Shown: piece after piece, positions 1 through 32,760 of the stretch
How positions within the stretch are numbered: the first letter of the stretch is position 1
How the letters are laid out: each line of letters begins with the position of its first letter
Source: Amoebophrya sp. A120
Lineage: Eukaryota; Protista; Dinoflagellata
NCBI GenBank assembly: GCA_905178155.1
Contig: CAJINV010000026.1
Location: forward strand, 168,883-202,243
DNA: 33,361 nucleotides
Reading direction: 5' to 3'
Position numbers and translations under genes: made by a program
The notes under the pieces: model-generated
What the model saw: the letters and a program-made list of their open reading frames with translations, nothing else
What the model was told of the DNA's origin: nothing
Database searches by the model: none

Positions 1-3000
1 CCCCTCTGAATCCTCCCGTCGCCGCTCCGCCTACTCCGTACTGCAGGAGCGCGGGTGCTTTCGTCTTGTTCCCCGGATTATCAGATGGAAAAATGTCTGG
101 GTCTGGAAACTTGGAACTTGTGATGCTAACTTTGGACTCTTAGAGTCCAAAGTTAGCATCACAAGTTCCAAATTCTAGATTCTAGAAAAATTTGTATTGC
201 ATGACCAGCAAGAGGAGTCAAGTTTCTGCTACGCGGGGAGGCCATTTGTCATGCGGAATAGGCATCAATAAGCACTCGGAAAATCTGTGATGCCAGGGAA
301 TACATCACAGACGTCACGGGCCATGTAAAATCTGCATGACAAGTTCGGATCCTTCCAGACCCAGACATTTTTGCATTTGATACGGATGACATCATGATGA
401 ACTGGTGTTGTCCACCTCTCGTTCCGCATCTCGTCTTCTAATGCAAGTCTTGCATTACAAATCTTTCTTTTAAGGTAAATCCGCATTACAAATTTTATCT
501 CTCATGCTGAGGAAGTTTGTGATGCATTTATACGAGTACGATACTTTTGCAGTTCATAACTCTCGTTCCGCCAGCACTCCTATCCTGTGCAAAAGTATCG
601 TATTCGTATAAATGCAAGTCTTGCATTACAAATCTTTCTTTTAAGGTAAATCCGCATTACAAATTTTATCTCTCATGCTGAGGAAGTTTGTGATGCATTT
701 ATACGAGTACGATACTTTTGCAGTTCATAACTCCTGAGGTTGTAACTGCTGCTGTTTGGGGCGCCGCTGCTCTCCGCAACATTCATACTACTCCCCCGAC
801 CAACATCAGCCCCTGCGCGCGGCCCGAACGAATTTGTCCTGATCATGGCCTCCCGCACACTCCGATCTAACCAGGGATTCTGATCGTGAAACCGTTTGCG
901 TAGGCCCATCATCGAGCTCGTGGTGCTCCCAACGGTTTTTGTCGCGGACAACCTCTGCGAAGTAGAAGATTCCGGTGGACTACTGGTCGCGATCGAAGAG
1001 GGTCGTGCAGCTGGGCGAGTGTAAGAACTATGTGCTGGGAACAAAGGCGCGGCTGCTCCGGGCGGGGTGAGGAAAGAAGATGCAGGGTTGTTGACAGAAT
1101 TTGGCGGAAGATGGCCATGGCTAACATCTGCCTCCTCTTCTACATGGGTTTGTTCCTCATGCTCAACATCTTCGAACGCGATCCGACTCAACCTCCCCGC
1201 CGTGCTGTTCCGCAGAAACGCGGCGCCACCCGCGGTTTTGTACGCGGGGTTGGTTTATCAAATGCAAATGTGTCTGGATCTGGAAACTTGCGATGCTAAA
1301 ATGTGGATAATGGAAACACTTCCGAATGCAGTCCAGCATGACCACAACTATCCAGGACGCTTTCTCATAGGCAGTCCGCATGAGAACCTGCGTTCTTCTT
1401 GCTGCATGACAAAAATGGCTGCGACTTTTGCTTGTTATGCAATGCAGATATCCCAGGAATGTAAAGCTAGCATTACAAGTTCCAACTTTCCAGACCCAGG
1501 CTAGATATTTGCATTTGGTATGGTTTTGTACAGCAAAACCTGCCCGACGGGAAGCTCGTCCGGGGGCAGGTTGATCAGCTCTATCAGAAGGAAAAATCTC
1601 CCCACCCCATATCGAGACGAAGTTTCTCATGCTGGATTTCCGTACACAAATGCGCGCTGTCTTGCGATACCTACGGCATCGCAGCCGGATCCTCAGCCTA
1701 GGGCGGGGCGTTTGGGTCTAGTTGCTTAGCATTGCAAATGGCTGTCCTCGAGGCCCAACAGCATGGCAAATCGCTTCCATATGGGCGGGGAAGGCTTTGC
1801 ACTTGTCTTCATGCAAGACAGACGTGATTTGTGGCCTCAAATCAGCAAGACAAATTTTCGGAAACATGCCTTTTCAATATGGGGAGGGGAGATTTTTCCT
1901 GTCAATAAGCTCTTCAAAATCTTCGTTTTCCCCCCTGGATTTCAACACTTCCCGCCTCGTCCCCTGGACGTATGGATTGCAAATATGTCTGGGTCTAGAA
2001 GAGTGGAACTTGTAATGCTGTCTGCGAATTCTAAAAATATTTGTGTTGCATGAGCAGCAGGACGAGTCAGTTCTTGGCACGCGGAGAGAGCATAATTTCT
2101 CATGCGTAATTAGCATCAAGAAGCTTTCACAAAATCTGTGATGCTAGCACCAGCATCACAGACCTCACGGGTGGTCATGCAAAATGTGCATGACAAACCC
2201 CGACTTTTCCAGACCCAGACATTTTTGCAGTTGATAGGACGCCCCGTAGGTGTTTTTCCAAAAATTTTTCGTAGGTCCGCCAGCTGTAGTCGAATTTGCT
2301 GGTTAAAGAACAGTATCGAACGCAAAAATGTCGGGGTCTGGAAGGTTGCCAGGTTTGTCAAGCATATTTTGCATGACTCAGAATGTCTGTAATGCATGAT
2401 CTAGCATCACATATTTTTAGAGGCCTTCCCGATGCCTATCCCGCATGACAAATGCCCTCCCCGCGTAGCACAAACTGGGCTCCTCTTGCTGGTCATGCAA
2501 TACAGATTTTTTCAGAGTCCAAAGTTAGCATCACAAGTTCCAACCCTCCAGACCCAGACACATTTGCATTTGATAAACAGTGGGGGTATTCAAAATCAAC
2601 CATCAAGTCTGTCCAGGATTTCACCAACCCGGATAACAGCAAGCAGAGAACAAACAGCACGAAGAGAAACAGAAAAAGCGAAATCCACGGCATGTTTCCC
2701 CTATGCACTGCAAAAGTATCGCACTCGTATAAATGCATGACAAATTTCCGCAGCATGAGAAATAAAATTTGTCATGCGGATTTACCTTGAGAAAAAAATT
2801 TGTAATGCATGATTGCAATTACTACGAGTACGATGCTTTTGCATTGCATATCCCCACAACAGGTAGTCGTTCAACCCCAGCGGTCGGTACCAATATCAAA
2901 TGCAAAAGTGTCTGGGTCTGGGAAGATTGAACCTGTCTTGCGTGTCTGGCATTGCGGAAAAATCTGTATTGCATGAGCGGCAAAAGCAAAAAAAGCTCCG

Positions 3001-6000
3001 AACTTTCGTCGTGCAAAGTCGCAGCTTGTAATGCGTGCTACCAATGAGTAGAAAGCGTTTGAAAAATTTGTCATGCTTCACTGCACTTAAAGGCAAACCC
3101 AATCATGACCACTCAGCATTACAAGTTTCCAGACCCAGGCATATTTGCGTTTGATAACCAAACCCCGATCGCGATAAAGGCCGCTTCCCACGCGCCGATT
3201 TTCACAATCGCGATTTCCGCCCGCATATGAATTGCAAAAGTATCGCACTCGTATAAAAAATGCATTACAAATTTTTCCTCAGCATGAGAAATAATGAATT
3301 TGTAATGCTGATTTACCTATACGAAAAAAATTTGTAATGCATGATTGCAATACGAATACGATACTTTTGCACAGGATACCGCAGCCCCCGGTAGTAGCTG
3401 CTGTTTCCGACCAAGACGTGGCGGAATTTCAGCATCATTGACGCGCAGCACCAGATGTAGCAGATCAAAGCGAATAACCGGAGAAAGAGGGTAAGTATCC
3501 TGAGTAAAAACGTCCCCACACCATAGTCAACATGGAAAATCTGCTAGACAAATCAGCCAACTTTGGTTGTTTCGCATGACAAGTTTGTCCCCGTAGTGTA
3601 GTCCTGTTTAGCTAGTTCAGAAGCTGCATCACAGATCTGGCATATGATGCTATTTCTAGCATCACAAATCCCAAAACACGACCAGAAACTGCTTCTCATG
3701 GGTCTCCGCATCATCATCATCATGTAGTGGACACCCGCTCCCAGCGCCACAGGTCAAGGATCCCCTCCCCGGGGGGTGGGCGAGGAAGCACTTTCGGCGA
3801 CCTCAACATACAAAAGCCGAGCGCTACCACGGCAAGTCGCCCCAATAAAAGTACCAACCAGTCGGGAGCTACCCACCACACCTGATCAGCACAGCCCGGC
3901 CAGCTAGCCGAGCCCGACAGCCCAACATACAGAACGATCCAGGACCCGACCCATTTTACGCCATACGTTTTTGTTCTCACGGAAGAGACGACGCACCCCT
4001 TTGGGTTAAGGGGCGAGACTCTCCCTTAAGCCGCAACCCCACCCGGACAGGGGAGGCTGGACCATTTTTTTCAGCATGCAGATTTGCATGACAACTCTGG
4101 GGTGGGGATGTTTTTACACAGGATAGTAAGCGTCCAAAAGTTATCCCCGTTTTTGTTCGGTAGGAAGGGGGCGCACTTGATGAAATTATTGAAGCCGGAA
4201 TTGTACCAAAATTTGCCATCGTTGGTCAAGTTGTCGCAGTATTTGATCGGGTTGTAGTGGGCAAAGCTCGGTGGGATGCCCTGGGTTATCAAGGGAATGT
4301 TCGGTCCGGCCTGGTTTGGCTTCACCTTATCTTCTCCGATCACCACCGTGCCCGACGATCGGACGTACACATCGAAGCTCGCTCTTTGCACCAGCATCTG
4401 CCGCTCGAAGACCCATTCGAAAATGCCTTGATTCCAGTATTGTGACGAATAATCCCCCCCCCGTATCGGACAGCGGACTTGTGATGCTGGATTTGCGTAC
4501 GCATATGCGTTTGTATTGCTAGAAGGGCAAGAGACGCAGCTGTGGCCTTGTTTGCAGGCAATTTGTCATGCTGCTTTCCACTGCCAGTCTCCTCTAGTCA
4601 TGCTGAAGATGCAAGGCCTCTCCACGCCAGCCAGCACTACAGTGTCTACGTCTTTTGCATTCTAGCATGACAAAAGGATTTGCGGTCACAAATCAGCATC
4701 ACAAATTTCCAGTTTGAGTGTGGGGTGGGCAGATTTTTCATTTTGATATCCACCCGATCTCGCATCGCGCCCATAGGTCGAAAATGAAGCAGTATCAAAT
4801 GTAAAGATGTCTGGGTCTGGAAACTTGTGATGCTCTGTGGCGTATCATGAGGAAGCCACAATTGCTGGCTCAGCATGACAAGTTTCTGAGCTCCTAGGTG
4901 TTGCCTATTCTGCATGACAGACTGCGCTTCCGCATCACAGAAAAACGGAGCTCTTGGGTAACGCGCATGACAGATTTAAGAGTCATGCCAGACAAGCATG
5001 ACAGACATGAATTCTTCCAGACCCAGACATTTTTACACTTGATAAGCAGAGAAAGGAAACGACTCCGTTAAACCCGGCTATCCCAGTATGGTGAGCAAAA
5101 ACGTCCCCATCCCAGAGTCAAGATGGGAAATCTGCTACACAAATCGCCCGGCTCTGGCTGTTGCGCATGACAAATTTGGGCTCGCATTGTAGTCGTGCTT
5201 AGCTAGTGCAGCAGCATCACAGATGTAGCATACCATGCGGATTTGAGCATCACAAATATCAGAACACCAATAGAAACTGCTTCTCATGGGTTTCCGCATG
5301 AGAAAGAGAAACATATTCAGCATGCAGATTTGCATTACAACTCTGGGGTGGGGACGTTTTTACAAATGATACCCAGCAGCCCACCCGTGCCACGCGTCGG
5401 AAGTGAGAAAGGAAACGTTGCGGTTTCTTATGGAGGCGTCAGGATCAAAATCGACAAAGTTGAAATAAATAATTTGTGTTGCAAAAAACGGATACCAGTT
5501 GGCGCCCGGTTTTCAAGTGGCGCATGACAAATTGGGGTAGGACCGAGTTTCAGTTTGTCGTGCTGTTTGGGAAAGGAAGACGCTTCTTGTCATGCTACTT
5601 ACTTTATTAGCAGCTATATTTCTACCAGTCCACAGGCTTACAATCTGCCTCACTTGCCTACTCTGCAAGACAGGCACCTTGTGGGTTGCATTCTATGCAT
5701 CACAAGTTTTTCAACTTTCTCAATTTCGGTCCTGACACTCTCATATTTCTCAGGAGTAATTTTACCTCGTCGTCCGTAATGTCGTTCGGTAAATCGTAGG
5801 CCCAGTAATCCTTCCGCTTCTGTCTGGGGATAAACACGGAGAACATCAACCCTCCAACGAGCAAAAACACCCGGAGAATGTCGAAAGTGTATCGGAGAAA
5901 CGTCACAATTGGGTTAAACACTGCCGGCTGGTTCTGGCCGCACGCGTCGTCCTGCGCTGCTTGTCCCGCAGCGGCTCCGGCACCGGTGTCATCCGGCCCG

Positions 6001-7375
6001 TTCCCGGCCTCCTGGCAGGGGGCGGAGACCAAAGTGAGTTATCGCAAGAAAAAACTGTTTCACTGTGAACTTGTGATGCATAGAATGGAACACAGAACTA
6101 TTTGTCTTGCTACACCTGCAAGGCATTGGATTTTTAAGCATGTTTTCTCTTGGAAAGCGCGCATGGCAAATTTTCTGTGTCATCTGTAGCAAACTTGTGA
6201 CGCGGATCTTGCAAAACCATCACAGTGAAACAGATTTTTCGTGGGATATGAGTAGGTACGGCGGTAAAAAGTGCATCTCGAAGAAACTTACCTGCATGAA
6301 GAGCAAGCAGGCGACCAGCCAGGTACCCTTGAACACGCTAGACGGGGTTTCCTCTAGATCCGCCATCATCTCACTCATGTGCACTTCGCCGTAGGAAAGA
6401 ATGTTGTGGATGCAGATGGCTTTTTCTTCGTTGAGAAGCGCCTGCTCCTGCTTCAGAGCGTGTTCTAACTTCCTCCCCCTTTCCGTCTGCTGAAATTCTT
6501 GGTTTTGGAAAATGATTGGCAAATCCGTACCGGGGGTAGACTCGCCGGAAGAGGAGTGATCATCCGCAACCTCGTCGATCTGTTCAAGAAGAACGCGCGT
6601 TGACGTGTCGTTATGGAGCAGCCTCTCATGTTCATCTGGTGGTGGCAGCAAGCTGCTTGCTCCGTTTGTTCGATAGGCACCATTTGCCATGATTATACCA
6701 CTGTCCGGTAGATTGAGGTTAGCATCGTGGTCGAGTTGGGCGCTGTTGGTCGTGGGAAAATAGAGCTCGTCGTTGTCAAACAAGTGATTGTCTTCTCCAG
6801 CGGCAGCGACGGGACGAGGAGGTCCGAAGCCGCGTCCCCCGTTAGCATCCGCAGCCGCATTCATCGTCCGGGCTGCAACCCTGCGGCTGAAGAGCCCTAG
6901 GATTTTTTTCTGTTCCGTTTCCTTTTTGAGCTTGTAAATTTTCTCCTTCAATTTTTGGTCCCGTTCCCTCAAGTCGAAGTACCCGAAGGCGCGCATCAAA
7001 ATTCGACATTTTAGCGTTCCCCGCAAACTCTGGATTGTGAAAATGTCTGGGTCTGGAAGAATGCAAGTTTGTCATGCTTGTCTGGCATGGCTCGAGAATC
7101 TGTGTTGCATAGGCGCGAAAAGGCCCTCTTGCCTGTCATGCAAAACCGCAGTTTGCCATGCGGAATACGTAAAACATGGCAGCCAAAAAATTTGTCATGC
7201 ATAGGTGCGTATTGCAGTGCGTCTACCATTCACTTTTAGCATTACAAGTTTCCAGACCCAGACATTTTTGCAATCCATACCAACTCCGCAACGCACCCCG
7301 CATGCCGTAGAGTAGTAATGCTATGCCGACCAAAAGGGTGAACGAATTTCCAAAATTACGGAGAAAGTCCGTCAT
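1..7375 (-). CDS. Multi-pass membrane protein of unknown function, >=919 aa, 3' end beyond the window; split by 16 TIR/TSD elements and one duplication-derived intron
   Basis: First in-frame ATG at 7375 after TAA at 7478-7480 (MTDFLRNFGNSFTLLVGIALLLYGMRGALRS). Manual removal of each element plus one TSD gives one open frame. Example junctions: PYLL|TLVSAPC, KLLLR|NRNVSFLTSDAWHGWAAG|IAGFNGVVSFLC|FIFDLWARCEIGW|NQGIFEW, NFWTL|TLFLRLF, RGLR|AEIAIVKIGAWEAAFIAIGVW|YRPLGLNDYLLWG|NMPWISLFLF, EYPHC|SLTSKFDY, FEEL|INLPPDELPVGQVLLYKT|NPAYK, YNLRS|AGGTR|GGQHQFIMMSS|GEQDESTR. Spliced length is 2759 nt, with several hydrophobic segments. Confidence 0.88.
79..382. mobile_element. TIR introner, family A
   Basis: TATCAGATGGAAAAATGTCTGGGTCTGGAA...TTCCAGACCCAGACATTTTTGCATTTGATA; TSD CGGAT at 74-78 and 383-387. 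Confidence 0.93.
428..571. other. Intron-like segment made by local duplication of a family B element
   Basis: About 440-559 copies about 611-730. It is bounded by the 12-bp direct repeat CTCTCGTTCCGC (416-427, 560-571), and removing 144 nt restores the frame. Confidence 0.6.
581..729. mobile_element. TIR introner, family B
   Basis: TATCCTGTGCAAAAGTATCG...CGATACTTTTGCAGTTCATA; TSD ACTCC. Confidence 0.92.
1256..1520. mobile_element. TIR introner, family A
   Basis: Family A TIRs (right end GGTA); TSD TGGTT. Confidence 0.92.
1582..1907. mobile_element. TIR introner, family C
   Basis: TATCAGAAGGAAAAATCTCCCC...GGGGAGATTTTTCCTGTCAATA; TSD AGCTC. Confidence 0.92.
1971..2236. mobile_element. TIR introner, family A
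   Basis: Family A TIRs; TSD GGACG; reverse-complement sister of 23170-23428. Confidence 0.93.
2314..2575. mobile_element. TIR introner, family A
   Basis: Family A TIRs; TSD AACAG; opposite orientation to sister 79-382. Confidence 0.93.
2702..2850. mobile_element. TIR introner, family B
   Basis: TATGCACTGCAAAAGTATCG...CGATGCTTTTGCATTGCATA; TSD TCCCC. Confidence 0.92.
2894..3156. mobile_element. TIR introner, family A
   Basis: Family A TIRs; TSD ACCAA. Confidence 0.92.
3226..3378. mobile_element. TIR introner, family B
   Basis: TATGAATTGCAAAAGTATCG...GATACTTTTGCACAGGATA; TSD CCGCA. Confidence 0.92.
3496..4125. mobile_element. TIR introner, family D, with a nested insertion of about 350 bp
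   Basis: TATCCTGAGTAAAAACGTCCCCAC...GTGGGGATGTTTTTACACAGGATA; TSD GTAAG; extra sequence at about 3712-4063 relative to 5087-5371. Confidence 0.9.
4438..4748. mobile_element. TIR introner, family C (degenerate left TIR)
   Basis: Internal similarity to 9484-9794; TAT...ATA ends; TSD TCCAG/TCCAC. Confidence 0.85.
4793..5044. mobile_element. TIR introner, family A
   Basis: Family A TIRs; TSD AGCAG. Confidence 0.92.
5087..5371. mobile_element. TIR introner, family D
   Basis: TATGGTGAGCAAAAACGTCCCCA...TGGGGACGTTTTTACAAATGATA; TSD CCCAG. Confidence 0.92.
5429..5745. mobile_element. TIR introner, family E
   Basis: TATGGAGGCGTCAGGATCAAAATCGACAAAGTTGAAA...TTTCAACTTTCTCAATTTCGGTCCTGACACTCTCATA; TSD TTTCT. 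Confidence 0.9.
6040..6248. mobile_element. TIR introner, family F
   Basis: TATCGCAAGAAAAAACTGTTTCACTGTG...CACAGTGAAACAGATTTTTCGTGGGATA; TSD TGAGT. Confidence 0.92.
7029..7279. mobile_element. TIR introner, family A (left end TCT)
   Basis: Family A TIRs; TSD CAAAC/CCAAC. Confidence 0.85.
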
Positions 7376-7459
7376 TTTCGTAGTGTATCTATTTCTATTT
7401 TTATTTTGGCGAGTTAAAAATAAAAACGACTTGACGGGTTGTACTTGTTGTAAGGGTCG

Positions 7460-8085
7460 TTCCGCTAGATGTAGTACTTACTTTTTACCGAGAGGAAAAC
7501 AAAAGCGCCAAACGGCAGAAGTAGACGAAGGTGAAAGAGTATAAAAAAGATAACTTTGGTGTATTTCGTAAGCTCAACATCCGTAGCCGTAGAGCGGCAT
7601 GTTGTAGGCGGGTAAAGAAAATGCTATATCCTGCAACTGCTGAGGTCAGCACAACTTCCTTTTTATTGCTTTTGAGCGCCGAGGAATGTTATTCACGGTG
7701 ACTCTATTGAATCCACTTGTCGTTCTCTATTTCCATCAAATCCGCACAGGAATTACAATTTCCTGACCGACATATCCTCTTGAGCAGGCGCAGACAGACG
7801 TTTTATCTTCTTCTTGCACGAGCCATTGCCATGGAGGTTCGCAATACAAGGTCTACTGACAGAGGGATGATCCTTCTTCAGGGCAGCAAACCGAATTCGA
7901 TGTCGTGTCGAGGAAAAAAGTTTTCCAACTACTTCTAAGTACTCTAAGAATAAGCACATCAAACAACGACAGATCATGTTCTTGCACGGATGTTGTGTTT
8001 TATCGTGCTGTCGTGCCTATCAATCATTGAGACGTCGTGTTCAGTAGCACAACACCTTCTTCTTCTTCAACCGATCATACCGATT
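7460..8085. repeat. Degenerate dispersed repeat, copy 1
   Basis: Colinear similarity to about 12497-13100, for example the shared GCGCAGACAGACGTTTTATCTTCTTCTTGCAC and CGCAATACAAGGTCTACTGACAGAGGGAT. Confidence 0.8.
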
Positions 8086-19327: not shown

Positions 19328-20093
19328 CAGAACACAGAAATTGATGTATACGAAAAAAACAACACAGGACATGATGAAAACGAATGTACATACTGAATGA
19401 CTGCCCTCTTCTGGTAAGTATAATACTCTACTTGATACTACGGCTCTGGTTCCTCCAGGAAAAAGAAATAAAGTAGTACGATTTGTGAGAATGAAATGTG
19501 GCGGAAACAGCCGATATAACTTATGGAATTTGATTTCGACAAAGAAAAGGAAAACAATAACAAATGAATGCTGTACTTGAGAAAAAGAAAAAACCTGCTG
19601 TATTCCACCAAAACGTCACTGTGTTCTGCAAGCGGAAGCTGCAGTTCCGACCGTATTTAAGTTTATCAAAAGGTCACAGCTGCTCAAATGTGCTCCGGCT
19701 CCTGCGGCGCGTCATGCTCCGGCTCTTCCGACGCGTAGGTCTCCAGGTCATAAGACGGGTCCTGCATCTTTTGCAGCCTCCGCCCGCCATTGTCCGCTGA
19801 CCGAGAGGACTTCTGACGCCCCGCCCGATAGCTGCGGGTACCCGCGGGCACCTTGGCCGCGTCGTAGCTGTGTTGATGTTATATTTTTTTTTGTCATGCA
19901 ACAAAACCAGTATAATATTAAGAGACAGGACTTTGTCATGCTCGAAGAACTACGAGTACGACATAATTTTTACACGTATATAATCAGCCGATTGCTATAA
20001 TACCTGTCCTCGTACCCCCCAGCGTAATACCCGGTTTGCACGTCGTCCAACGCCTGCGGCTTGCGCTTCTTGCGGGAAGCCTCGCCCAGAGAG
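19328..20093 (-). pseudogene. 5'-truncated paralogous copy of the 3' end and 3' flank of the CTL-like gene, lacking three introners
   Basis: Colinear with about 22745-24488. It encodes LGEASRKKRKPQALDDVQTGYYAGGYEDS-YDAAKVPAGTRSYRAGRQKSSRSADNGGRRLQKMQDPSYDLETYASEEPEHDAPQEPEHI* (stop 19684-19686) with a GT-AG intron at 19868-20003. Confidence 0.85.
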
Positions 20094-21251
20094 TATGGCG
20101 ATGGCAGAAACTTTTTGCTTCAAAACTTTTTTTTTTTTGGGCATGCAATTCACCCATCATGAGAACTAGACACCTGCTGGGCGGTGAATATTCCGCGCAT
20201 GAACAGGACGGCATTTCGTGTAGGCTGAGCTAGCTAGTCTAAATGCAGGGACAGGGTCGGCCTGCCTATCGGCTGCGTCACGGATTCGTCCTGAGCGCTT
20301 TGACCTCCAGATGCGTGACAGGTAAGTCCCCCGCCGCGGCCTTGGCGTGTCGAGAAGTAGTTCATGATATGGCAGCGCAATTCTGACTGTTCGCACAAGG
20401 GCGGCAGTCTCAAACGAGCATGGCCACGGGACCTGGCGCCCTATAGCTTCCAAAATACTCTGTGAGCCACTGATAGTGTAGGCGCACAGAGCCAATAAAG
20501 TCGCCCGCTTTATTCCGGGCCCGACTGTGTAACACCCGTCCTTGCCGGGTTCGCGTGATCATTTTTCCTGACATTGCTTTTGAAAAGCTGCAAACTTGCG
20601 GAAGAAAAAAGGGGGCTCGGCCCCCCCCTTGAGGGGGGGGTTTGGGGGACCCCCCTTCGTGGAGATACTAAGGGGGAGCACCCTTCTGCGAAGACCCAAA
20701 AGGGGGGGGGGGTTTGGGGAAGGGCCTGGGGGTACCCCTTGAGGGTTTTTGCTTGCTTCCGAAGACGCAAGATTCTTTTGCTCTTTGTAAAACAACCAGG
20801 GCTGAAAAGCGCTGGCCCGAGCCCAAGACCCGAAGTCGTGGCGTATCCGCGGCGCCTATGTCATTGGGGCCGTCGCGCTTAGCTTTGAATTGTTTGACAA
20901 CCGGACGTGGCCACCTGTTTTGCCTACCGGGGCAAGGGCCAGCTGTTTGCCACGAGCCGCGGCACAGACGGCCTCGGCTTGGCTGCGTAATTCTTTTATC
21001 CGACCAGCGCCATTCCATACTGTGTCTGTCCGGCTCCTGCGCCTGCCGTCACGGACCGGACCCGGGACGCAACCGGCGGCAAGGTCCGTCCTGTTCCTGC
21101 ATGCAGACCAGCAAATTTGACATGGGCATAAAGCCGCAGCGCGCACGCGTGAGATAGTCGCAGCTGAGACGATATCTACTTTTCGCGCTGGGTGATGCGC
21201 ATGGCGAAAAAAAAAAAAGTTTTGCAGGAAAAAGTTTCTGCCACTGCCATA
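20094..21251. mobile_element. 1.16-kb non-autonomous TAT...ATA TIR element (family G)
   Basis: TATGGCGATGGCAGAAACTTTTTGCTTCAAAACTTTTTTTTTTTT pairs with AAAAAAAAAAAAGTTTTGCAGGAAAAAGTTTCTGCCACTGCCATA; no 5-bp TSD and no transposase ORF recognised. Confidence 0.8.
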
Positions 21252-23098: not shown

Positions 23099-26000
23099 TC
23101 AAATGTGCTCCGGCTCCTGCGGCGCGTCATGCTCCGGCTCTTCCGCCGCGTAGGTCTCCAGGTCGTAAGTATCAACTGCAAAAGTGTCGGGGTCTGGGAG
23201 AGTCGGGGCTTGTCATGCACATTTGCATGACCCGTGAGGTCTGTGATGCTGGTGCTAGCATCACAGATTTTTTGAGAGCTTCTTGATGCTAGTTACGCAT
23301 GAGAAATGCCCTCTCCGCGTGCCAAGAACTGACTCCTCTTGCTGCACATGCAACACAGATCTTTTTAGAATCCGCAGACAGCAGTACAAGTTCCACTCTT
23401 CCAGACCCAGACATGTTCCCCCTGCATAATAAGACGCGTCCTGCATCTTTTTCAGCCTCCGCCCGGCATTGTCGGCTGACCGAGAGGACTTCTGTATCAA
23501 CTGTAAAAATGTCTGGGTCTGGAAGAATGTGAACTTGTCATGCAGGTTTTCTATGACCCTTGAGGTGTGGAATGCGGGACCTAGCATGACAGAGGCTGTG
23601 AGGTCTCTTTCATGCCTATTCTGCATGAGAAACTGCCTTTAAACTTGTTCAAAAGTGGACCTCTTTTGGTAATCATGCAACACAGATTTTTGCATGATTC
23701 GGATTTAGCATGACAAGTTGCAATCTTCCAGACCCAGACATTTTTGCAATCCATATTCTGCCGCCCCGCCCGATAGCTGCGGGTACCCGCGGGTACCTTG
23801 GCAGCGTCGTAGCTGTGTTGATGTTTTTTGTTTATCACGCATGACCAGTATCTTAAGCTTAACAGACGGAATTTCGATTTTCTCATGCTCGAACGACATA
23901 TTTGTACATCATGTCAGATTGTTGACATTGACTGTAGCGGACTCCTATATATACCTGTTCTCGTACCCCCCAGCGTAGTACCCGGTTTGCACGTCATCCA
24001 ACGCCTGCGGCTATCAAATGCAAATATGTCTGGTGTTTTGTCTGGAAACAAGACCTTGATACAGCACGGGGAAGAGAACGACTTCAACTTTTTGAAGAAA
24101 CAAAAGTAAAAGAGAACTACGCTGATGCACTATGTAGAGAGAGACTAAAAGCATGCTATGATGTCCACCGGTGGAACTAACTACTGCTACTTATACTGTC
24201 ATGTCTGGGTCTGGAAGAATGCAATATGTCATGCAGATTTTCCATGACCCATGAGGTCTGAAATGCGGGGCCTAGTATGACAAAGTCTGCCAGGTCTCTG
24301 TCATGCCTATCCTGCATGAGAAATCCCCTCCCAACTTGGTCGAAAGTGGACAGCTTTTGGCACTGATGCAACACAGATTTTGGCATGATTCAGATTGAGC
24401 ATCACAACTTACTGTGGTCTTCCAGACCCAGACATATTTGCAATGCATAGCGGCTTGCGCTTCTTGCGGGAAGCCTCGTCCAGAGAGGTTATAACCCGCT
24501 CAGGTGTTACAATCTCAAACGTTACAATAGAATCTGGAATTTGTGTTGCAAGAAGTGCATGACCTACCCTACTCCCACAGGATTGCGCATGACAAGTTCT
24601 GGAGTCCCAATCCGCACTACAATCTGGCGAAATTTGTATTGCAAATAGTGGAACGCTGTCCGAGTCTGTCATGTTGGTCATGCAAGACAAATCTCAGATT
24701 CTATTGTAACGTTTGAGATTGTAACACCTGAGCAGGTTATAGAGGTGCGTCCGCGTTTCTGAGATCCAGATCTGTTTCCACGACCTTGCGCGTCGTAGGA
24801 AGATGAACCGTAGCCTGCGTAGTGGTCGTCGGCGTAAGATGAACCGTGGTTATAATTCCAATCGTCGTCATGCCAGTCGTCATCCCCTCCACCAACTTCA
24901 ATCTCCGCCATTTCAATTGCCTCCCCTTCCGCGTCGTGAAATTTGTGGTCTGGCGACGCCGTTGTAGAAGAATTATTTGTCGGGTCAGCAAATGTTGATC
25001 CCATCGGCTTCGGCAGGTTGTTTTTCATGTTTTCGTTCGCAGCTTTCATGTCGTAGGACACCAAGTCATTGGTCGTCATGATGCCCTCCCCGGTGGCGCC
25101 CGGGGCGTCCGCGGGCCCGAGGATATCGAATGCAAATATGTCTGGGTCTGGAAACTTGTGATGCTAAAATGTGCATGATGAAAGCACTTCCTCATGCAGG
25201 AAAGCATGACAAGCTTGCAGAACGCTTTCTCGTACGAACTCCGCATGAGAAACTGCGTTTCTGTCTGACATGAGACGAGGCTGCCACTTTATTTGTTGGT
25301 CATCATGCAATACAGATTTCACAGGAATGTAAGAACAGCATTACAAGTTCCAACTTTCCAGACCCAGACATATTTGCAATGCATAGAGGAGACCCTTGAC
25401 GGATTTGCGCTGGTCTCGTCCCGCCTCCTTGCCCTCGGACCGGAGAAGGGCGTCGTATCGTGTGTAAAAACCACAGGGCCCAGGAGCACACCAGAGTAAT
25501 CTTCAAGATAGGACGTTTGCTACATAAATCAGCAGGCTTTGGCTGTTGCGCATAACAAGTTCTTTGGGTACACTCTGGTGTAGTTGTAGTGGTCGTGTTT
25601 GGCTAGTACATTAAAGCCGCATCACAAAATAGAATCTAGCTGCTCCCTATCCTGATTAGAGCAGGACAAAGTTCTTGTACCAAGCAGCATGGGAAAGTGC
25701 TGCTCATGAAATTGCGTGCATGAGAAACATTTTAGGCATGCAGATTTGCATGACATCTAACTCTGGGCAGGTCGTGTGGGCCCCGGTTTTTCCTCAGGAT
25801 ACGTGGCAGTACAAAATCGCGTTGGTACTGTAAACGATCAGCATCTGCACAAACTGGAAGATGACGGCACAGGCACAGCCGACAAAGATTCCGGTAATAT
25901 CAAATGCAGAAATGTCTGGGTCTGGAAACTTGTGATGGTGCAAGTCAGTGATCAATAAGTGAACTGTAATGCGCAGCCGAGCATGACAAGTTTTTTTCGT

Positions 26001-29000
26001 GCTTCTGTGCCGCCAATTCCGCATGAGAAACTGCGTTTTTGCATGACACGCGAGAGAGGCTGTTCGTGGCCACGCAATACAGATTGCAGAGTCATGCCAG
26101 ACTAGCATGTCAAATCTGGCAATCTTCCAGACCCAGACATATTTGCCTTTGATATGTAAACAAACCGTGCAAAACGTTGTTTTCGTCCAGATCCTATGCA
26201 TTGCAAATACCGATCCGGGTCTGGAAGGATGGAACTTGTCATGGTACCTTTGGATTCGTTTTAAAATGTGTATTGCATGAACAGCAAAAGACATCCAGTT
26301 TTTTGCTACGCGGAGAGGGCATTTCTCGTGCGGTATGGGCATCAGAAAGTCCTCGCAGAGTCTGTGATGCTACGGCTTGCATCACAGACATCATCGGGCA
26401 GGCAAAATCTGCATAACAAACTCCAGCAAGCTTCCAGACCCAGACGTATTTGCATTTGATAAATCCTTGATGGCATTCCAGTCGGCGATATCAAATGTAA
26501 AAATGTCTGGGTCTGGAAGATTGCAACTTGTGATGCTGTCTCTACATTCTAAAAAAATCTGTATTGCATGAGTAGCAAACGGAATGCAATTTTTGCTACG
26601 CTGAGAAGACATTTGTCATGCGGAATAGGCATCAAGAAGCCCTCAAAAAATCTGTATTGCTAGGGTATGCATCACAGACATCATGGCTCATGCAAAACGT
26701 GCATGACAAGTGTCAGAATCTTCCAGACCCAGACATTTTTACATTTGATACGCGATCAGGATGAGCAGGATCAAGCCGAAGATGGGCCCAAAGCCGAGGC
26801 CGATCACGAACATTATCGCAAGAAAAAACTGTTTCACTGTGAACTTGTGATGCAGAAAATGGAGCACAAAACTATTTGTCTTGCTACACCTGCATAGAGC
26901 ATTGGAGTTTCAACCGTGTTTTCCCTTTTGGAATCGCGCATGGCAAATTTTCTGTGTCATGTGTATACAAACTTGTGATGCGGTTCTTGCAAAATCATCA
27001 CAGTGGAACAGTTTTTTCTTGCGATAAACATCCACATAAGGATGATGAGAACGAAGAGAACAAACACGCTCACGTCAAAATTGTCGTTTCCGAAGACGCC
27101 CTGTTCGATTTGGTTATCCATGTAGACCCAAGCCATCATGCCCTATCAAACGCAAAAATGTCTGGGTCTGGAAGATTGCGAGATTTGTCATGCTTGTCTG
27201 GCATGACCAAAAAGTTTGTGATGCGTGTCCAAGGAGGGACCCTTTTGCCTGTCATGCTTGTCATGCGAAAAACGCAACACAAAGAAGCGCAGATATTTAT
27301 CATGCTTGCCTGTGCATTACAGAGCATTCACTGTTCCCAACGCAGCATTACAAGTTTCCAGACCCAGACATATTTGCAATCCATATGCCCATGCCGGTCG
27401 CAACCAGCACCCGGTGCACCGTAAAAGTGGACGTCAGTGCGTAGTCCTGCACGGCTAAACCCAGCACGCCCTGGTTGCTATCGTCCTGAAACAGGTTAAA
27501 CACTTTCATCGCCGTGGCGCAAATCGGGCCGGAGTGAATCGTATGAACTGCAAAAGTATCGTACTCGCATAAATGCATTACAGATTTCCTCAGCATGAGA
27601 AAAAAGATTTGTAATGCGGGTTTACCTTGACAAAAAGATTTGTAATGCATGATTGCAATACGAGTACTATACTTTTGCACAGGATAAATCGTGTGACCGA
27701 CGACCAAGTACTTGGTGAAGGGTTCGACGAGACACTTGATTCCCATCCAGAGCTATCAAATGTAAAAGTGTCTGGGTCTGGAAGGTTGGAAGACTTGTCA
27801 TGCAGGTTTTCCATGACGCTTGAGGTCTGTAATACATGACCCAGCATGACAGCTTCTTCTCGACCTCTATCATGCCTCGTCTGCATGAGAAAGTCCCTCT
27901 CAGCTTGGTCAAAAGAGGAGAGCTTTTGGTAATCATGCAACACAGATTCTTGCACTATCGAGAATTAGCATGACAGGTTGCATTCTTCCAGACCCAGACA
28001 TTTTTACAATCCATAAGAGCGCGAAGCACAACAAGTCCGTGCAGCAAAACCCGAAATTCCAACAACAGCAAAGAATCGGGTTTGCGGCCACGTTCTCCGC
28101 CCGCCGGCGGATCTCGTACGTCAACGAAACAATGATGGACGCGAACATGTTAACCCCGGCAGAGGTCGTGTACGCCATGGAAAACCCGACGGCTCCGGGG
28201 TTGCGAATCGCCGGTGTGTTTCCGTACAGCTTTGCTGCGGTTCCCGAGTGGAAGGTCCAGTTGGCGACGCCGGTTGTGCAAATGATGAGAATCACCTGGC
28301 GCAGAAAGATTACCAGCGGAAAGAAGACGAGCCAGAGCATGGTCTGACAGAAAACACTCGCGCTCGTTGTCTTCAGCTCACACAGGCTGGCGCTGTTGTT
28401 TGTGGGGTTCGCGTGCCGAATAAGCGTTCCAGTATACCGCCACTCCACCCAATTTCCGGACTCGATGAACCCAACGAGCCAAAAGGCGAGAAAACCGCCG
28501 AAAACCAAAAACTGCAGCATGGAAAACAATATCACGTCTTTGGCTTTGTTCAGACACGACATGGCCTTGCTCGCACTGTCGGCCGCTTCGGAGACTTGCT
28601 TGAAGTAAAGAATGGTCACCACGGTGACTACCACAGCGGGAATCATATCAAATGCAAATATCGATCTGGGTCTGAAAGATTGCAGGAGTTTGTCATGTAT
28701 CTACTTCTGGATCACGCAACTGGTCCCTCGTGCTGCACGCAAAAGCATCACAGGATTTGCGCACGCCTCCTGATGTCTATCCCACATGAGAAATCCCCTA
28801 TTTGCGTAGCAAGAAATGGGAAGCTTTTGGTGCTTCTGCAATACAGATTTTTGTCTAGTCCAGACTTAGCATGACAAGTTCCAATTCTTCCAAACCCAGA
28901 CAGATTTCCAACTGATAAATCAGCAGGTACCATAAATGTTTCGGGTCGACGCAGAATAGCGCAATCATGGCGATCACACCCAGGGCGATGGTGCCAAAAA

Positions 29001-32000
29001 TCATCACCTTCGGGGCGTAGTAAAGCGCCAACAGCCACAAAACCAGCAGCCAGGTGAAGGCGAGAAAAGAGATCAGCGGCACCTCCCACTGCTCCGCCAT
29101 CGTTTCCCACACCGTCTTCCGATCGTCGCTCGCGCTCAGTTATCCTGTGCAAAAGTATCGCACTCGTAGTAATCGCAATTATGCATTACAAATCGTTTTC
29201 CTAAGGTCAATCAGCATGAGAAATTTCATTTGTAATGTTTCGCAAATTTGTAATGCGAGTTCTACTAGTACGATACTTTTGCACCGCATATCAGCCGCCG
29301 CCGCAAGTGCCGCGCTTCTTGCAGCAGCCGCTTCGCCTGCAGCCGTTTTTGCAAGTGCCGCTCTTCCAGTTCCGCCCGCTGTTGTAGTTCTTCCTCCCCG
29401 TACGAACTAGGCAGGAACTTGAAATCTTCATGGCTTTCGAGTTCGTGCTATGCATTGCAAATATGTCTGGGAGGTCTGGAATAAACTTGTAATGCTGAGT
29501 TGCGTAGCATGAGGAGGCCAAGAATGATGGCCCAGAATGACAAGTTTCCGAGCTTCTAGGTGTAGTTGCCTACACTGCATGACAAACTGCGTTTCAGCAT
29601 CACAGAAAAATCGGCCTTTTGAGTAATCGGTGCATGACAGACTTGAGAGTCTTGCTAGCCGAGCGAGACAAATTTCGCATTCTTCCAGGAGACCGCCCAG
29701 ATCCATATTTGCAGTTGATACGTGCACTTGTTGCAGTAATTGGCGGATTCTCAAATGGCCTGCATCTCCGCGCTCCTGCAAATCGTCTTCCTCACCACCA
29801 GGAGCGACGTTATGCGTTGCAAATATGTCTGGGTCTGGAAACTTGTGATGCTAATTTATGAATTGCGGGGACACGGCAATAGGCAGCCACGCATGACAAG
29901 TTTCTGGGCTCCTATGTGTTTCGCTTTCCGCATGACAAACTACATTTTTGCATGACAGGCAAGAGGGTCTTTTGCTGCTCACGCATTACAGGTTCAAGAA
30001 TCATGTGAGACAAGCATGACAAACATCTGCATTCTTCCAGACCCAGACACTTTTGCATTTGATAGACGTCCTCCCCCGACAAAAGAACTCGGGGATTTTT
30101 TACGCATTGGTAATTGCTCATATCGCACGAAAAAACTGTTTCACTGTGAACTTGTGATGCATAAAATGAAACACAGAAGCATTTGTCTTGCTACACATGC
30201 AAGACAACGGATTTCTAGCTGTGTTTTCCCTTAGGATTCCCGTATGACAGATTTTCAGTGTCATGCGTAACAAACTTGTGATGCAGATTTCGCACAACCA
30301 CCACAGTGAACCAGTTTTTTCGTGGGATAGCTCATGTCGAGAGTGTAGTCCCACTGGCACCAATCGCACCCAATGCCGTTCGAAAGGACAGCAGCATAAT
30401 AATTACAGCGGTACGCGCCCATCGCACCTCCCCCGGGGCAGATGCAACCCGTCGACGGTGCTATGACAGTGCACAACTCCTCCTCCCCCTCATTTGTCGT
30501 GCGAAATCCCAACTCCAGTCGCTGCATTGTGGCACTGTGTGCATGACAAAAAATTCCGGAGGGGGCCAAAAAGTACTACATGATCAGGCACTACGTAGAT
30601 TTGTCCATGCATAGGCTCCACATGTGGTGCGCGGGTGTTTGTATTGCTGTTCATGTCATACATAGAAGTGGGAGGGGGAGTTGTGCCCTCTCATAGGTGC
30701 GACCGTGCTTGTAGAAGTCGAGGCTGAATCGGGAACGCATTGCATCGTAAGGAAAAATCCCCCCGCCCCATATCGAAAAGGAAATTTGTGATGCTGATTT
30801 GTGGCCACTGCGTACACAGCAAACGGCACTCCTGCGGCGCATTGTAAGTACAGCGAGTCTGTCACGCGTTTTCGCATATGCCAGACTTGCTTCTCATGCT
30901 CAGTTGCTAGCCGGATGCGTACCCGAGTGGGCGTAGAACATGCCGCCACGCTCTTGCTGCAATAGATGAAAGCTCCTTTGTGTACACAAATCCAGCAACA
31001 CAAATTGTCTTTTGAATATGGGGTAGGGGCTTTTTTCACGTTGATACATTGGTAAAGGTTAGGTGAGTTACTGCGTGTGTAGCCGATATTACAGCCTCCA
31101 CACCCGACTCCGTTCGTCAGCGTGCCGTAGACACTTCTGCACTATCAAATGCAAAAATGTCTGGGTCTGGAAGAATGCAACTTGTGATGCTGCATTAGCA
31201 TTTGGATGTCTAAAACTAAAATTAAAAGAATTGTGTTGCATGAGCAGCAAAAGGAGTCTAATTTTTGCTACGCGGTAGTAGTAGTAGTCACCATTTGACT
31301 CCTGGCGGGTCGGCGTTAGAACAGATTTAGCCTCTGCGAATACAGCCTGGGCGTTAGAACAGATTTAGCCTCTGCCAATACCACCTGGGCGCTAGAACAG
31401 GTTTAGCCTCTGCCAATGCCCCTAGGTGGATATCCGATCCACTTCCTAACTACCACCCGGCCGCAACCGCAATACCGCTATCGATTGCTTACGCGTATCT
31501 ACGGCCAGTGGGCGTGACGTGTGGCAGACCCATCTTACCATCCAAGCCCGCAAGCAAGGCGGAGCTTCGGAGTAGCCTTGAAGGGTTGGTCTTACAAACT
31601 TGTTCGCAATCATACTTCTGTGTACGCGCAGAGGGCATTTGTCATGCGGGATAGGCATCAAGAATCCCTGAAAAAAATTGTGACGCTAGGGCATGCATCA
31701 CAGACATCATGGCTTATGCAAACCGCGCATGACAAGTCTCAGAATCTTCCAGACCCAGATCGATTTTTGCATTTGATAGGCACACACTGCTAGTGAGCGG
31801 AGTTCCATTCGGACAGGTGCAGATACCATAACCGGGACTGCTAACGCATTGCATCGTGGCCTGACTCACTGCGTAGTTGGGATCGCAGTAGTCGCACCCG
31901 ATGCCGTTTGTCAGCGAGCCCATGCTGGTGTACATGCCGCAAAATGAGTTATCCTGAGTAAAAACGGGGCCCGCACACCAGAGTCAAGATGGGATGAAAT

Positions 32001-32760
32001 CTGCTAGACAAATCCACCAGCTTTGGTTGTTTCGCATGACAAGTTTCGATCCTCGTAGTGTGATCCTCGATTTAGCTAGTTCAGCAGCATCACAGATCTA
32101 GGACATGATACTGGTTCTAGCATTACAACAAATTCCCAAACACGACAAGAAAATACTTCTCATGGGGCGCCGCATGAGAAACCTTTTTCGCATGTAGATT
32201 TGCATGACAACTCTGGGGTGGGAACGTTTTTACTCAGAATATGAGTCGGTGAGCGGAGTTCCATTCGGGCACGTGCAGGTCGCCGTGGGCGCCGGCGACG
32301 GCGCATATCAACTGCAAATATCGATCTGGGTCTGGAAGTAGAGTGTAAACTTGTCATGCAGGTTTTCCATGACCCACGAGGTCTGGAAATATTCAAATGC
32401 GGGACCTAGCATGACAGACTCTGCGAGGTGGTCTCTGTCATAGTACTTTTCCTGCATGAGAAACTCCCTCCCAACGTGCTCGAAAGTGGACACCTCTTGG
32501 AAGACTCATGCAACACAGAGGGCTTTTGTAAGATTCAGATTTAGCATGACAAGTTAGCGCCCTACTTCCAGACCCAGACATTCTTGCATTTGATAGCGCA
32601 GGGGTTCCCCCGCCGATGTTGGCAACGCATTGGTAATTGCTGATGTCGAGCGCGTAGCCGGCGTTGCACAAAGAACAGCCGATTCCACCCTGCAGGCTCG
32701 GTTGCATCATTCCGCAGGTGTAGTCGATCATCGGCACTCCATTCGGGCAGGTGCAAGAAC
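23099..32760 (-). CDS. Choline transporter-like (SLC44/CTL/Pns1 family) membrane protein with Cys-rich CxCPNG repeats; >=1007 aa, 5' end not in view
   Basis: Removing 23 elements (each plus one TSD) and one GT-AG intron (23813-23954) gives 3026 nt of open frame ending in TGA at 23099-23101. CTL-like segments: ICTTGVANWTFH, AYTTSAGVNMFASIIVSLTYEIRRR, CCCWNFGFCCTDLLCFALWMGIKCLVEPFTKYLVVGHTIHSGPICATAMKVFNLF, IVYSTNAILYC. The family was assigned from remembered motifs, not from a search. Confidence 0.87.
23170..23428. mobile_element. TIR introner, family A
   Basis: TSD GTAAG/ATAAG; empty site in the paralog at about 19750. Confidence 0.93.
23495..23755. mobile_element. TIR introner, family A
   Basis: TSD TTCTG; empty site in the paralog at about 19811. 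Confidence 0.94.
23813..23954 (-). other. Canonical GT-AG spliceosomal intron
   Basis: Minus strand AG|GTATAT...CACAG|C; removal joins YEN-S-YDAAKV in frame; same position in the paralog (19868-20003). Confidence 0.82.
24012..24449. mobile_element. TIR introner, family A, with a nested 167-bp insertion
   Basis: TSD GCGGC; empty site at about 20056; insert 24034-24200 is flanked by ATGTCTGG repeats. Confidence 0.92.
24490..24741. mobile_element. TIR introner, family H
   Basis: About 47-bp near-perfect TIR TATAACCCGCTCAGGTGTTACAATCTCAAACGTTACAATAGAATCTG; TSD GAGGT. Confidence 0.94.
25124..25385. mobile_element. TIR introner, family A
   Basis: Family A TIRs; TSD GAGGA. Confidence 0.93.
25456..25801. 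mobile_element. TIR introner, family D-like (diverged)
   Basis: TATCGTGTGTAAAAACC...GGTTTTTCCTCAGGATA; TSD CGTCG/CGTGG. Confidence 0.85.
25898..26154. mobile_element. TIR introner, family A
   Basis: TSD GGTAA/TGTAA. Confidence 0.92.
26195..26461. mobile_element. TIR introner, family A
   Basis: TSD GATCC/AATCC. Confidence 0.92.
26489..26750. mobile_element. TIR introner, family A
   Basis: TSD GGCGA/CGCGA; only 27 nt from the previous element. Confidence 0.92.
26814..27026. mobile_element. TIR introner, family F
   Basis: TSD AACAT. Confidence 0.93.
27144..27385. mobile_element. TIR introner, family A
   Basis: TSD TGCCC. Confidence 0.93.
27542..27686. mobile_element. TIR introner, family B
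   Basis: TSD AATCG. Confidence 0.93.
27754..28015. mobile_element. TIR introner, family A
   Basis: TSD AGAGC. Confidence 0.93.
28646..28917. mobile_element. TIR introner, family A
   Basis: TSD AATCA. Confidence 0.92.
29141..29290. mobile_element. TIR introner, family B
   Basis: TSD TCAGT/TCAGC. Confidence 0.92.
29449..29720. mobile_element. TIR introner, family A
   Basis: TSD CGTGC. Confidence 0.92.
29811..30064. mobile_element. TIR introner, family A
   Basis: TSD GACGT. Confidence 0.93.
30121..30329. mobile_element. TIR introner, family F
   Basis: TSD GCTCA. Confidence 0.93.
30462..30695. mobile_element. TIR introner, family I
   Basis: TATGACAGTGCACAACTCCTCCTCCC...GGGAGGGGGAGTTGTGCCCTCTCATA; TSD GGTGC. 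Confidence 0.9.
30743..31046. mobile_element. TIR introner, family C (left end CAT)
   Basis: CATCGTAAGGAAAAATCCCCC...GGGGCTTTTTTCACGTTGATA; TSD CATTG. Confidence 0.9.
31143..31778. mobile_element. TIR introner, family A, with a nested 348-bp insertion
   Basis: TSD TGCAC/GGCAC; insert 31275-31622 lies between TACGCG repeats. Confidence 0.9.
31950..32241. mobile_element. TIR introner, family D
   Basis: TSD TGAGT. Confidence 0.92.
32306..32595. mobile_element. TIR introner, family A
   Basis: TSD GCGCA. Confidence 0.93.

What the first reader, a model, noticed from the sequence alone, without database searches (positions are those of the whole stretch)
79..3378. Excision appears independent of orientation
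Sister elements sit in opposite orientations within the same gene: 79-382 versus 2314-2575 (family A), and 581-729 versus 3226-3378 (family B). 1971-2236 is also the reverse complement of 23170-23428, and both host genes are on the minus strand. A strand-specific donor, branch point and acceptor could not work both ways, so the signal is likely the symmetric TIR stem plus the direct repeat.
Basis: partly seen in the sequence, partly recalled or inferred. Interest (0 to 1): 0.8.

Follow-up and report, generated by a model that had tools for sequence, protein, structure and literature searches.

The report
Transposon introns spliced in both orientations
In the marine parasite Amoebophrya A120, already-published hairpin-ended transposon inserts lie either way round inside the same genes and are missing to the base from probable transcript assemblies in both orientations, with the cut likely set one base before and four bases after the paired ends, likely by an altered spliceosome.

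Summary
The inserts are the published introner elements of Amoebophrya A120 (Farhat 2021); two exons match A120 proteins at 100%. 32 of 42 elements are missing from probable-RNA contigs (19 seen directly, 13 by exact length sums); a DNA-like run keeps them. Three families are removed in both orientations from one transcript. Among 190 elements, all ten families with three or more members lie both ways. 79-382 itself was never seen spliced, and efficiency by orientation could not be measured. The inverted ends are symmetric, so any end-borne signal is offered both ways, and ordinary spliceosomal introners in Polarella also work in either orientation (Roy preprint). What excludes normal splicing is that 0 of 32 junctions can be GT/GC-AG. 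The cut is polar, not symmetric: eight mismatched target duplications fit one register, 1 nt before and 4 nt after the element in transcript direction. One of them argues against the direct repeat guiding the cut. The scan found this register before on other pieces of this genome. I found neither it nor orientation independence for A120 in the passages I read. The enzyme is unknown.

The parts
1..7375 (-). Host gene 1 (membrane protein of unknown family; ATG at 7375). Its frame runs off the window start only if 416-559 is also removed
   Evidence: matches A120 protein P0002 over 879 residues; X1 contigs of 1369 and 1571 nt equal the predicted spliced lengths
79..382 (.). Family A element, orientation class +, duplication CGGAT
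   Evidence: removal not seen in RNA rows
440..558 (.). Truncated copy of the family B element (440-562 identical to 611-733); keeps only the arm that comes first in the transcript; flanked by a 12-nt repeat at 416-427 and 560-571
   Evidence: the X1 contig ends at 560 and two contigs carry the same loose end at 581, which suggests a mix of removed and kept forms (inferred)
581..729 (.). Family B element, class +
   Evidence: Removed: X1 loose ends join 575 to 730 and the contig length fits; the deposited protein P0002 reads into it instead
1256..1520 (.). Family G element; first end in the transcript is TAC, not TAT
   Evidence: Removed by exact length sum
1582..1907 (.). Family K element
   Evidence: Removed by exact length sum
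1971..2236 (.). Family A element, class +; 89% reverse complement of 23170-23428
   Evidence: removed by exact length sum
2314..2575 (.). Family A element, class -
   Evidence: removed by exact length sum
2702..2850 (.). Family B element, class -
   Evidence: removed by exact length sum
2894..3156 (.). Element with A/D-type ends, interior unassigned in the window
   Evidence: removed by exact length sum
3226..3378 (.). Family B element, class -
   Evidence: removed by exact length sum
3496..5745 (.). Five further elements of gene 1: 3496-4125, 4438-4748 (duplication mismatch at transcript position 1), 4793-5044, 5087-5371, 5429-5745
   Evidence: removed by exact length sums; a retained-form contig over 4407-4717 has depth 9.6 against 419
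6040..6248 (.). Family F element
   Evidence: Contiguous contig pieces 6034|6249
7029..7279 (.). Family D element; last end in the transcript is AGA, not ATA; duplication mismatch at transcript position 4. The key case for the register
   Evidence: Contiguous pieces 7023|7280 with no other letters; Trp in P0002 needs a cut after position 4 or 5
19661..20100 (-). Partial paralog of the 3' end of gene 2 with empty sites for 23170, 23495 and 24012; it has its own intron at the GT-AG position
23099..32758 (-). Host gene 2, choline-transporter-like protein with cysteine-rich repeats; continues beyond the window
   Evidence: Pfam PF04515 E=3e-9; A120 protein P0001, 1007 of 1007 residues
23170..23428 (.). 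Family A element, class -; duplication mismatch at transcript position 5
   Evidence: Joint 23165|23430 in 4 of 4 runs
23813..23954 (-). Ordinary GT-AG intron in the same transcript
   Evidence: Joint 23812|23955; sequence shown
25456..26750 (.). Four elements with mismatched duplications: 25456-25801 (position 2), 25898-26154, 26195-26461, 26489-26750 (position 5); the last two are family A, class +
   Evidence: Joints 25450|25802, 25893|26156, 26190|26463, 26484|26752; empty or shared sites in L073
27144..30064 (.). Opposite-orientation sisters removed from one 2265-nt contig: B 27542-27686 vs 29141-29290; D 27144-27385 vs 29449-29720 and 29811-30064; A class - 27754-28015 and 28646-28917
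   Evidence: Joints and contiguous pieces; orientation
23495..32595 (.). Remaining elements of gene 2: 23495, 24012, 24490, 25124, 26814 (joints seen); 30121, 30462, 30743, 31143, 31950, 32306 (outside the laid stretch)
   Evidence: removal of the last six is implied by the match to P0001

Best explanation
These short transposon copies with paired TAT...ATA ends sit in exons in either orientation, stay in the DNA and are absent from probable transcripts, with a cut that likely falls one base before and four bases after the element in transcript direction and is likely made by an altered spliceosome reading the symmetric ends. Shown: insertion with a 5-nt target duplication (empty sites); removal of the element plus 5 nt in both orientations; no GT/GC-AG ends. 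Inferred from eight junctions: a single -1/+4 register, which assumes that all elements share one register. This offset takes out exactly one copy of the duplication, so a new insertion at any site and either way round would restore the message. Inferred, untested: the signal is in the end 25-30 nt (sequence, pairing or both), the duplication is a by-product and not the guide, and the catalyst is the U2/U4/U5/U6 core working without U1.
For: Joints for 14 elements and contiguous pieces for 2 more in X1-X3 at depth 294-540; 13 of the 14 joints also appear in X4 at depth 8-18. Contig lengths 1369 and 1571 equal the prediction. DNA-like run X5 reads across exon-element junctions at depth 21-29. 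Register (U = upstream copy, D = downstream copy of the duplication): RNA keeps U1 (29141; 4438 by contig break), U2 (25456), U4 (7029) and D5 (23170, 25898, 26195, 26489); only a cut after U4 fits all eight. 23170 and 26489 are opposite-orientation sisters and both keep D5. In the allele L073, 14 of 23 window sites are empty, 6 shared, 3 unresolved. Where the copies differ, the changed base is in the removed part in 4 cases and is a synonymous exon change in 26489. Of 32 junctions, 0 can be GT-AG or GC-AG and 2 can be GA-AG; duplication bases are near uniform. 37 of 39 elements would stop or shift the frame if kept. For the spliceosome: nearly all its proteins and U2, U4, U5, U6 were found in A120, U1 was not, and 15% of canonical introns carry the same repeats (PMC7789003 sections 10, 11); a GT-AG intron is removed from the same contig.
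Against: Nothing here identifies the enzyme. The RNA evidence is assembled contigs of one study (2 samples), labelled RNA by guess, which drop minor forms; two raw-read runs gave only 6 and 2 reads. Six of the eight junctions allow any cut from after U1 to after U4; the exact position rests on 7029 (one case) together with the four D5 cases. 79-382 was not seen spliced. Deposited protein P0002 reads into 581-729 and keeps both repeats at 4793. A 297-nt contig over 26166-26409 at depth about 800 keeps most of element 26195 and then leaves the window sequence (unexplained). The one-armed copy 440-558 may be partly removed without a stem. No G-U excess supports RNA pairing. Family D is skewed 5:17 (p=0.017 uncorrected).
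Confidence: 0.55

Rival explanations
1. A non-spliceosomal nuclease plus ligase recognises the RNA hairpin and cuts it with a fixed stagger (1 nt out on the 5' side, 4 nt out on the 3' side), like the unexplained route proposed for euglenid nonconventional introns. This is closest to the first reader's idea.
For: No conserved splice-site base at either end. Arms are predicted to pair in both orientations for most elements. U1 was not detected in A120. Euglenid introns have a stem offset from the junctions and are released as circles (review passage, PMC11282704).
Against: No G-U bias on the transcribed strand. Arm positions 4-8 pair in only 110 of 195 cases, and several removed elements have low predicted in-register pairing (28646: 0.21; 1256 and 23170: 0.43). 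A nearly full spliceosome is present. No candidate enzyme was tested.
Confidence: 0.3
2. The ends are read on the DNA or during transcription by a protein that binds the inverted repeats (for example a domesticated transposase) and brings them together, so RNA pairing is incidental.
For: The shared end motif (TAT, G at position 9, A-run at 11-13) looks like a protein-binding site and is symmetric; no strand bias in wobble pairs.
Against: The -1/+4 asymmetry follows the transcript. The original paper found no transposase in A120. Retained-form contigs exist at low depth, as expected of a precursor RNA.
Confidence: 0.07
3. The elements are cut out of the DNA in some life stage (like ciliate IESs), or the runs come from an allele that never had them.
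For: Insertion sites are polymorphic between alleles; X1-X4 are RNA only by guess.
Against: X5 contigs cross the junctions unbroken. X1-X4 also lack a GT-AG intron, lack elements that both alleles share, show no other letters in exons, and keep the derived base at 26484 where the empty allele has the ancestral one.
Confidence: 0.04
4. Reverse transcriptase jumps between the direct repeats across the hairpin, so the junctions are library artefacts.
For: A hairpin flanked by direct repeats is the known substrate for template switching (recalled).
Against: 37 of 39 elements would break the protein if kept. At 7029 the junction needs a jump on 1 nt of homology, ignoring a 3-nt match. Element interiors fall to 1.7-8.7 against 294-412 in clean bins.
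Confidence: 0.03

Closest known systems
Introner elements among the non-canonical introns of Amoebophrya sp. A120 (Farhat et al. 2021, PMC7789003; read: outline, sections 10, 11, 12, 16, 32, term passages, supplement part 2 of 5 plus a term search; figures not held)
   Same: Same organism; TAT + 7 nt + A-run ends; inverted and direct repeats; repeated families; RNA-supported removal without GT-AG.
   Different: The paper calls splice positions relative to the hairpin variable or unknown (Fig. [quoted passage not shown] Its uses of 'orientation' concern genes only. Added here: removal in both orientations, a family-by-family tally, a -1/+4 register and empty alleles.
Polarella glacialis and Aureococcus introner-like elements (Roy et al. 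preprint 10.1101/2020.10.14.339549; passages read. The Aureococcus paper itself was not held and is known only through this preprint)
   Same: Transposons with inverted ends and target duplications that create introns in either orientation, often with a bias to one.
   Different: They use GT/GC/GA and AG ends carried by the element or recruited from the duplication; here no such ends are possible in 30 of 32 junctions.
Euglenid nonconventional introns and hemistasiid diplonemid noncanonical introns (PMC11282704, PMC12621601; passages read)
   Same: No GT-AG; paired ends; junction repeats; MITE origin proposed; mechanism unknown.
   Different: Different end motif (CAG/CTG at +4 to +6 and -8 to -6, pyrimidine|purine junctions); euglenid ones are known to leave as circles, which is untested here.
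Non-autonomous TIR DNA transposons (MITEs)
   Same: Short, inverted ends, constant 5-nt duplication, empty allelic and paralogous sites, high copy number.
   Different: Tolerated in exons because they are removed from RNA; no mobilising transposase identified.

Membership tests
Amoebophrya A120 introner elements | Occurs in the A120 genome | tested here: met
   Two exons 100% identical to proteins named Amoebophrya sp. A120
Amoebophrya A120 introner elements | Ends: TAT, about seven variable bases, then a run of A | tested here: met
   TAT at 38-39 of 39 per position; A at positions 11-13 in 35-37 of 39; three families lack the A-run
Amoebophrya A120 introner elements | Direct repeat of 3-5 nt at the junction | tested here: met
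   5 of 5 matching in 33 and 4 of 5 in 9 of 42 elements
Amoebophrya A120 introner elements | Removed from RNA without canonical ends | tested here: met
   32 of 42 absent from probable-RNA contigs; 0 of 32 GT/GC-AG
MITE / non-autonomous TIR transposon | Inverted ends and a fixed-length target duplication shown by empty sites | tested here: met
   14 empty sites in L073, 9 L073 insertions empty in the window, 3 empty paralog sites, each 5 nt
MITE / non-autonomous TIR transposon | Cognate autonomous transposase and superfamily | not tested
   No genome held for this window
Canonical spliceosomal introner (Polarella/Aureococcus type) | GT/GC/GA donor and AG acceptor in some equivalent register | tested here: not met
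   Possible in 2 of 32 (GA-AG only)
Canonical spliceosomal introner (Polarella/Aureococcus type) | Branch point and lariat | not testable with these tools
   Branch-like motifs show no strand bias in 190 elements, but a symmetric one in the arms cannot be excluded
Euglenid nonconventional intron | Stem joining the two ends | tested here: inconclusive
   Predicted for most elements in both orientations, weak in register for some; no G-U bias
Euglenid nonconventional intron | CAG/CTG motif and pyrimidine|purine junctions | tested here: not met
   Ends are TAT/ATA; junction bases near uniform
Euglenid nonconventional intron | Released as full-length circle | not testable with these tools
   No raw RNA reads of this strain were available
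Ciliate-type IES (DNA excision) | Element-free DNA form | tested here: not met
   X5 contigs cross the junctions unbroken; one run, life stage unknown

The most novel reading that the evidence does not exclude
A120 runs a second, sequence-blind splicing route that measures from the base of a terminal hairpin (cut at -1 and +4, polarity given only by the transcript) and is not the spliceosome. It would turn any transposon with paired ends and a 5-nt duplication into a clean intron at any site and in either orientation, and so license the ongoing invasion seen between alleles.
Probability: 0.3. Interest if true: 0.85.

Novelty: already known. Interest (0 to 1): 0.42.

Why it matters
How A120 removes tens of thousands of non-GT-AG introns has been open since 2021. 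Orientation independence places the signal in the symmetric ends. The -1/+4 register says where to look for lariat or circle ends and what a test substrate must contain. It also explains why insertion is nearly free: two alleles of one gene differ by at least 23 insertions while their exons are about 93-100% alike. The elements themselves are published, and either-orientation introners are published for Polarella, so the gain is a testable rule, not a new system.

Tried and rejected
Efficiency by orientation: not measurable. No run on record as RNA was listed as a holder.

An apparent excess of synonymous duplication mismatches (7 of 9, p=0.001) and of position-5 mismatches (5 of 39 vs 4 of 156, p=0.017) in the window did not replicate. 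In 103 elements of other loci, 9 of 23 mismatches were synonymous, with 9 at position 1 and 2 at position 5. L073 shows that several of the changes are intronic. Rejected.

An apparent one-way bias in family E (9:0) vanished with more elements (13:7).

G-U excess as a sign of RNA-level pairing: not significant. Strand-biased k-mers or branch motifs: none after correction.

A GT-AG reading (438-560) of the truncated copy does not fit the contig break at 560; the alternatives stay unproven.

Two weak candidates from the motif-free scan (12577-13069, 19419-19917) and decayed copies near 12113-12390 and 22130-22390 were left out of all counts.

Pfam found no family above cut-off for four gene-1 exons. 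No whole genome is held for the window. The Aureococcus paper was not held.

Literature searches and term look-ups in PMC12130899, PMC9860276, PMC11282704, PMC13326754 and PMC12621601 (passages only) gave no statement on orientation or register for A120. Figures, four of five supplement parts (term-searched only), bioRxiv supplements and subscription papers were not seen.
Full report
What is there. The window holds 42 short elements (145-636 nt) that begin with TAT and end with ATA, have 25-30 nt inverted arms and are flanked by a 5-nt duplication (40 from motif-guided scans, 2 more from a motif-free scan). The duplication is perfect in 33 and has one mismatch in 9. The motif-free scan finds 38 TAT/ATA pairs in the window and at most 1 in each of 30 Markov controls. 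Two exons are 100% identical to proteins named Amoebophrya sp. A120, and the end motif matches the one published for A120 introner elements (PMC7789003 section 11). These are the published elements.

With 30 nt trimmed from each end, the three named pairs align far better as reverse complements (170 vs 60, 101 vs 34, 313 vs 36). Full-length identities are 71%, 88% and 89%. Clustering gives conflict-free orientation classes: families A, B and D have both classes in the window, E and F one. Both host genes are on minus. Removing each element plus 5 nt, and one GT-AG intron, gives a frame that matches P0001 at 1007 of 1007 residues. Gene 1 matches P0002 over 879 residues.

Are both orientations removed? 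In one search (stretch 23000-30100, runs X1-X4, one study, two samples, RNA by guess) the 15 printed joints are 14 elements and one GT-AG intron; 6 more joints were not printed. Two more elements show as contiguous pieces and one by record coordinates. One 2265-nt contig lacks both classes of families A, B and D. 23170-23428 is removed in 4 of 4 runs. In one search (stretch 1-10500), X1 has contigs of 1369 and 1571 nt, exactly the lengths predicted if all 15 elements from 581 to 7029 are removed. 6040, 7029 and 581 are seen directly and the other 12 rest on these sums. In all, 32 of 42: 19 directly, 13 by length. 79-382 appears in no printed row; 9484 was in the laid stretch without a printed joint; the other eight lay outside both stretches. 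Run X5 behaves as DNA: its contigs cross exon-element junctions at depth 21-29, with element depth thousands of times higher. The RNA-like runs are not an element-free allele. They also lack the GT-AG intron and elements shared by both known alleles, and they keep a derived base at 26484. Against: deposited P0002 reads into 581-729 and stops there, and a deep contig keeps most of 26195-26461. Efficiency by orientation could not be measured.

A wider tally. Of 358 distinct elements, 152 in 49 loci lay in a spliced frame of at least 180 codons on one clear strand, with no locus giving mixed calls. With 39 window elements and one shared site dropped, there are 190. All ten families of three or more lie both ways: A 23:31, B 16:10, D 5:17, E 13:7, F 5:13, K 3:6, and four small ones. 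Only D is skewed (p=0.017, not surviving correction for ten families). At a stricter clustering cut, one five-member subgroup was 5:0. These strand calls rest on reading frames, not RNA.

Does orientation independence show that the signal is stem plus repeat? Not by itself. The arms are the same in transcript sense at every position (lowest p 0.22, 0.11), so whatever they carry is offered both ways. Polarella classes make ordinary spliceosomal introns in either orientation (preprint passage). What rules out ordinary splicing is the junction sequence. Sliding each junction through all equivalent positions, 0 of 32 can be GT-AG or GC-AG and 2 can be GA-AG. No 4- or 5-mer or branch-like motif is strand-biased after correction. 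Pairing of the arms is predicted for most elements on both strands, but G-U pairs do not significantly exceed A-C mismatches on the transcribed strand (33 vs 35; 108 vs 84, p=0.10), so selection on RNA pairing is not shown.

The cut is polar. Call the upstream copy of the duplication U1-U5 and the downstream copy D1-D5, in transcript direction. The RNA keeps U1 at 29141 and (by the contig break) 4438, U2 at 25456, U4 at 7029, and D5 at 23170, 25898, 26195 and 26489. A single register fits all eight only if the cut follows U4: the intron is one base, the element, and four bases. Opposite-orientation sisters 23170 and 26489 behave alike. At 7029 the junction ignores the longer matching stretch, which argues against guidance by the repeat and against reverse-transcriptase jumping; this is one case. 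Empty sites in L073 show that the removed copy changed at 25456, 25898, 26195 and 29141 and the kept copy changed synonymously at 26489, as the register predicts. I derived the register before consulting the scan's notes (notebook). Those notes report the same rule on other pieces of this genome, which is not independent support.

Mechanism. The element inserts with a 5-nt duplication (shown by 14 + 9 allelic and 3 paralogous empty sites). In the pre-mRNA its ends are likely recognised and cut at -1 and +4, which removes one copy of the duplication at any site and in either orientation. I favour an altered spliceosome (0.55): A120 keeps nearly all of it but lacks detectable U1, 15% of its canonical introns have the same repeats, and a GT-AG intron is removed from the same transcript. 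A hairpin nuclease-ligase of euglenid type is the main rival (0.3); DNA-level recognition, DNA excision and artefact are unlikely. No result here identifies the enzyme.

Novelty. The system is already known. Either-orientation introners are known from Polarella and Aureococcus, with canonical ends. For A120, the text I read leaves the splice position open and does not discuss element orientation. Seven searches and passages of five other papers gave no such statement, but figures and closed papers were not seen. The value lies in a concrete rule that makes an open mechanism testable: interest 0.42.

Noticed in passing
window 416-571: A 123-nt exact copy of part of the neighbouring element and its flank (440-562 = 611-733), with one arm only and a 12-nt flanking repeat. 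The RNA contig breaks exactly where the -1/+4 rule would cut. A natural test of whether a stem is needed.
   Followed up: partly
window 26166-26409: A contig in X1-X4 (depth about 800 in X1-X3) holds exon plus the first 215 nt of element 26195 and then foreign sequence. It may be another locus whose one-armed copy is kept in RNA.
   Followed up: partly
L073 vs window 23076-31949: Allele of gene 2 with 14 empty sites, 6 shared elements and 9 insertions of its own: very active, recent insertion.
   Followed up: yes
window 3496-4125, 11507-12020, 24012-24449, 31143-31778: Elements with extra 180-360 nt inserts inside; 3496 and 24012 are still removed cleanly, so the interior seems not to matter.
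   Followed up: partly
window 24490-24741, 5429-5745, 30462-30695: Three families that share only TAT...ATA and paired arms, without the A-run; the first two are removed from RNA like the rest.
   Followed up: partly
window 4793-5044 and 581-729: The deposited A120 protein for gene 1 disagrees with the RNA contigs at two junctions (two extra residues; reading into an element): likely annotation errors caused by the repeats.
   Followed up: partly
window 14106-18772: Tandem array of about 15 units of 296 nt in two subtypes.
   Followed up: no
window 18637-22760: Mosaic of partial duplicates of gene 2 and its 3' flank (19661-20100, 21252-21326, 22037-22130, 22356-22760), including decayed elements.
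   Followed up: partly
window 9484-9794: The only element of 42 with GT-AG ends in the -1/+4 register; lies in a minus-strand frame of 414 codons once removed.
   Followed up: partly
window 10625-10775: CTACTACTC-type simple repeat of about 150 nt.
   Followed up: no
window 32761-33361: A further element appears to begin at about 32761 and run off the window; protein P0001 continues upstream of it.
   Followed up: no
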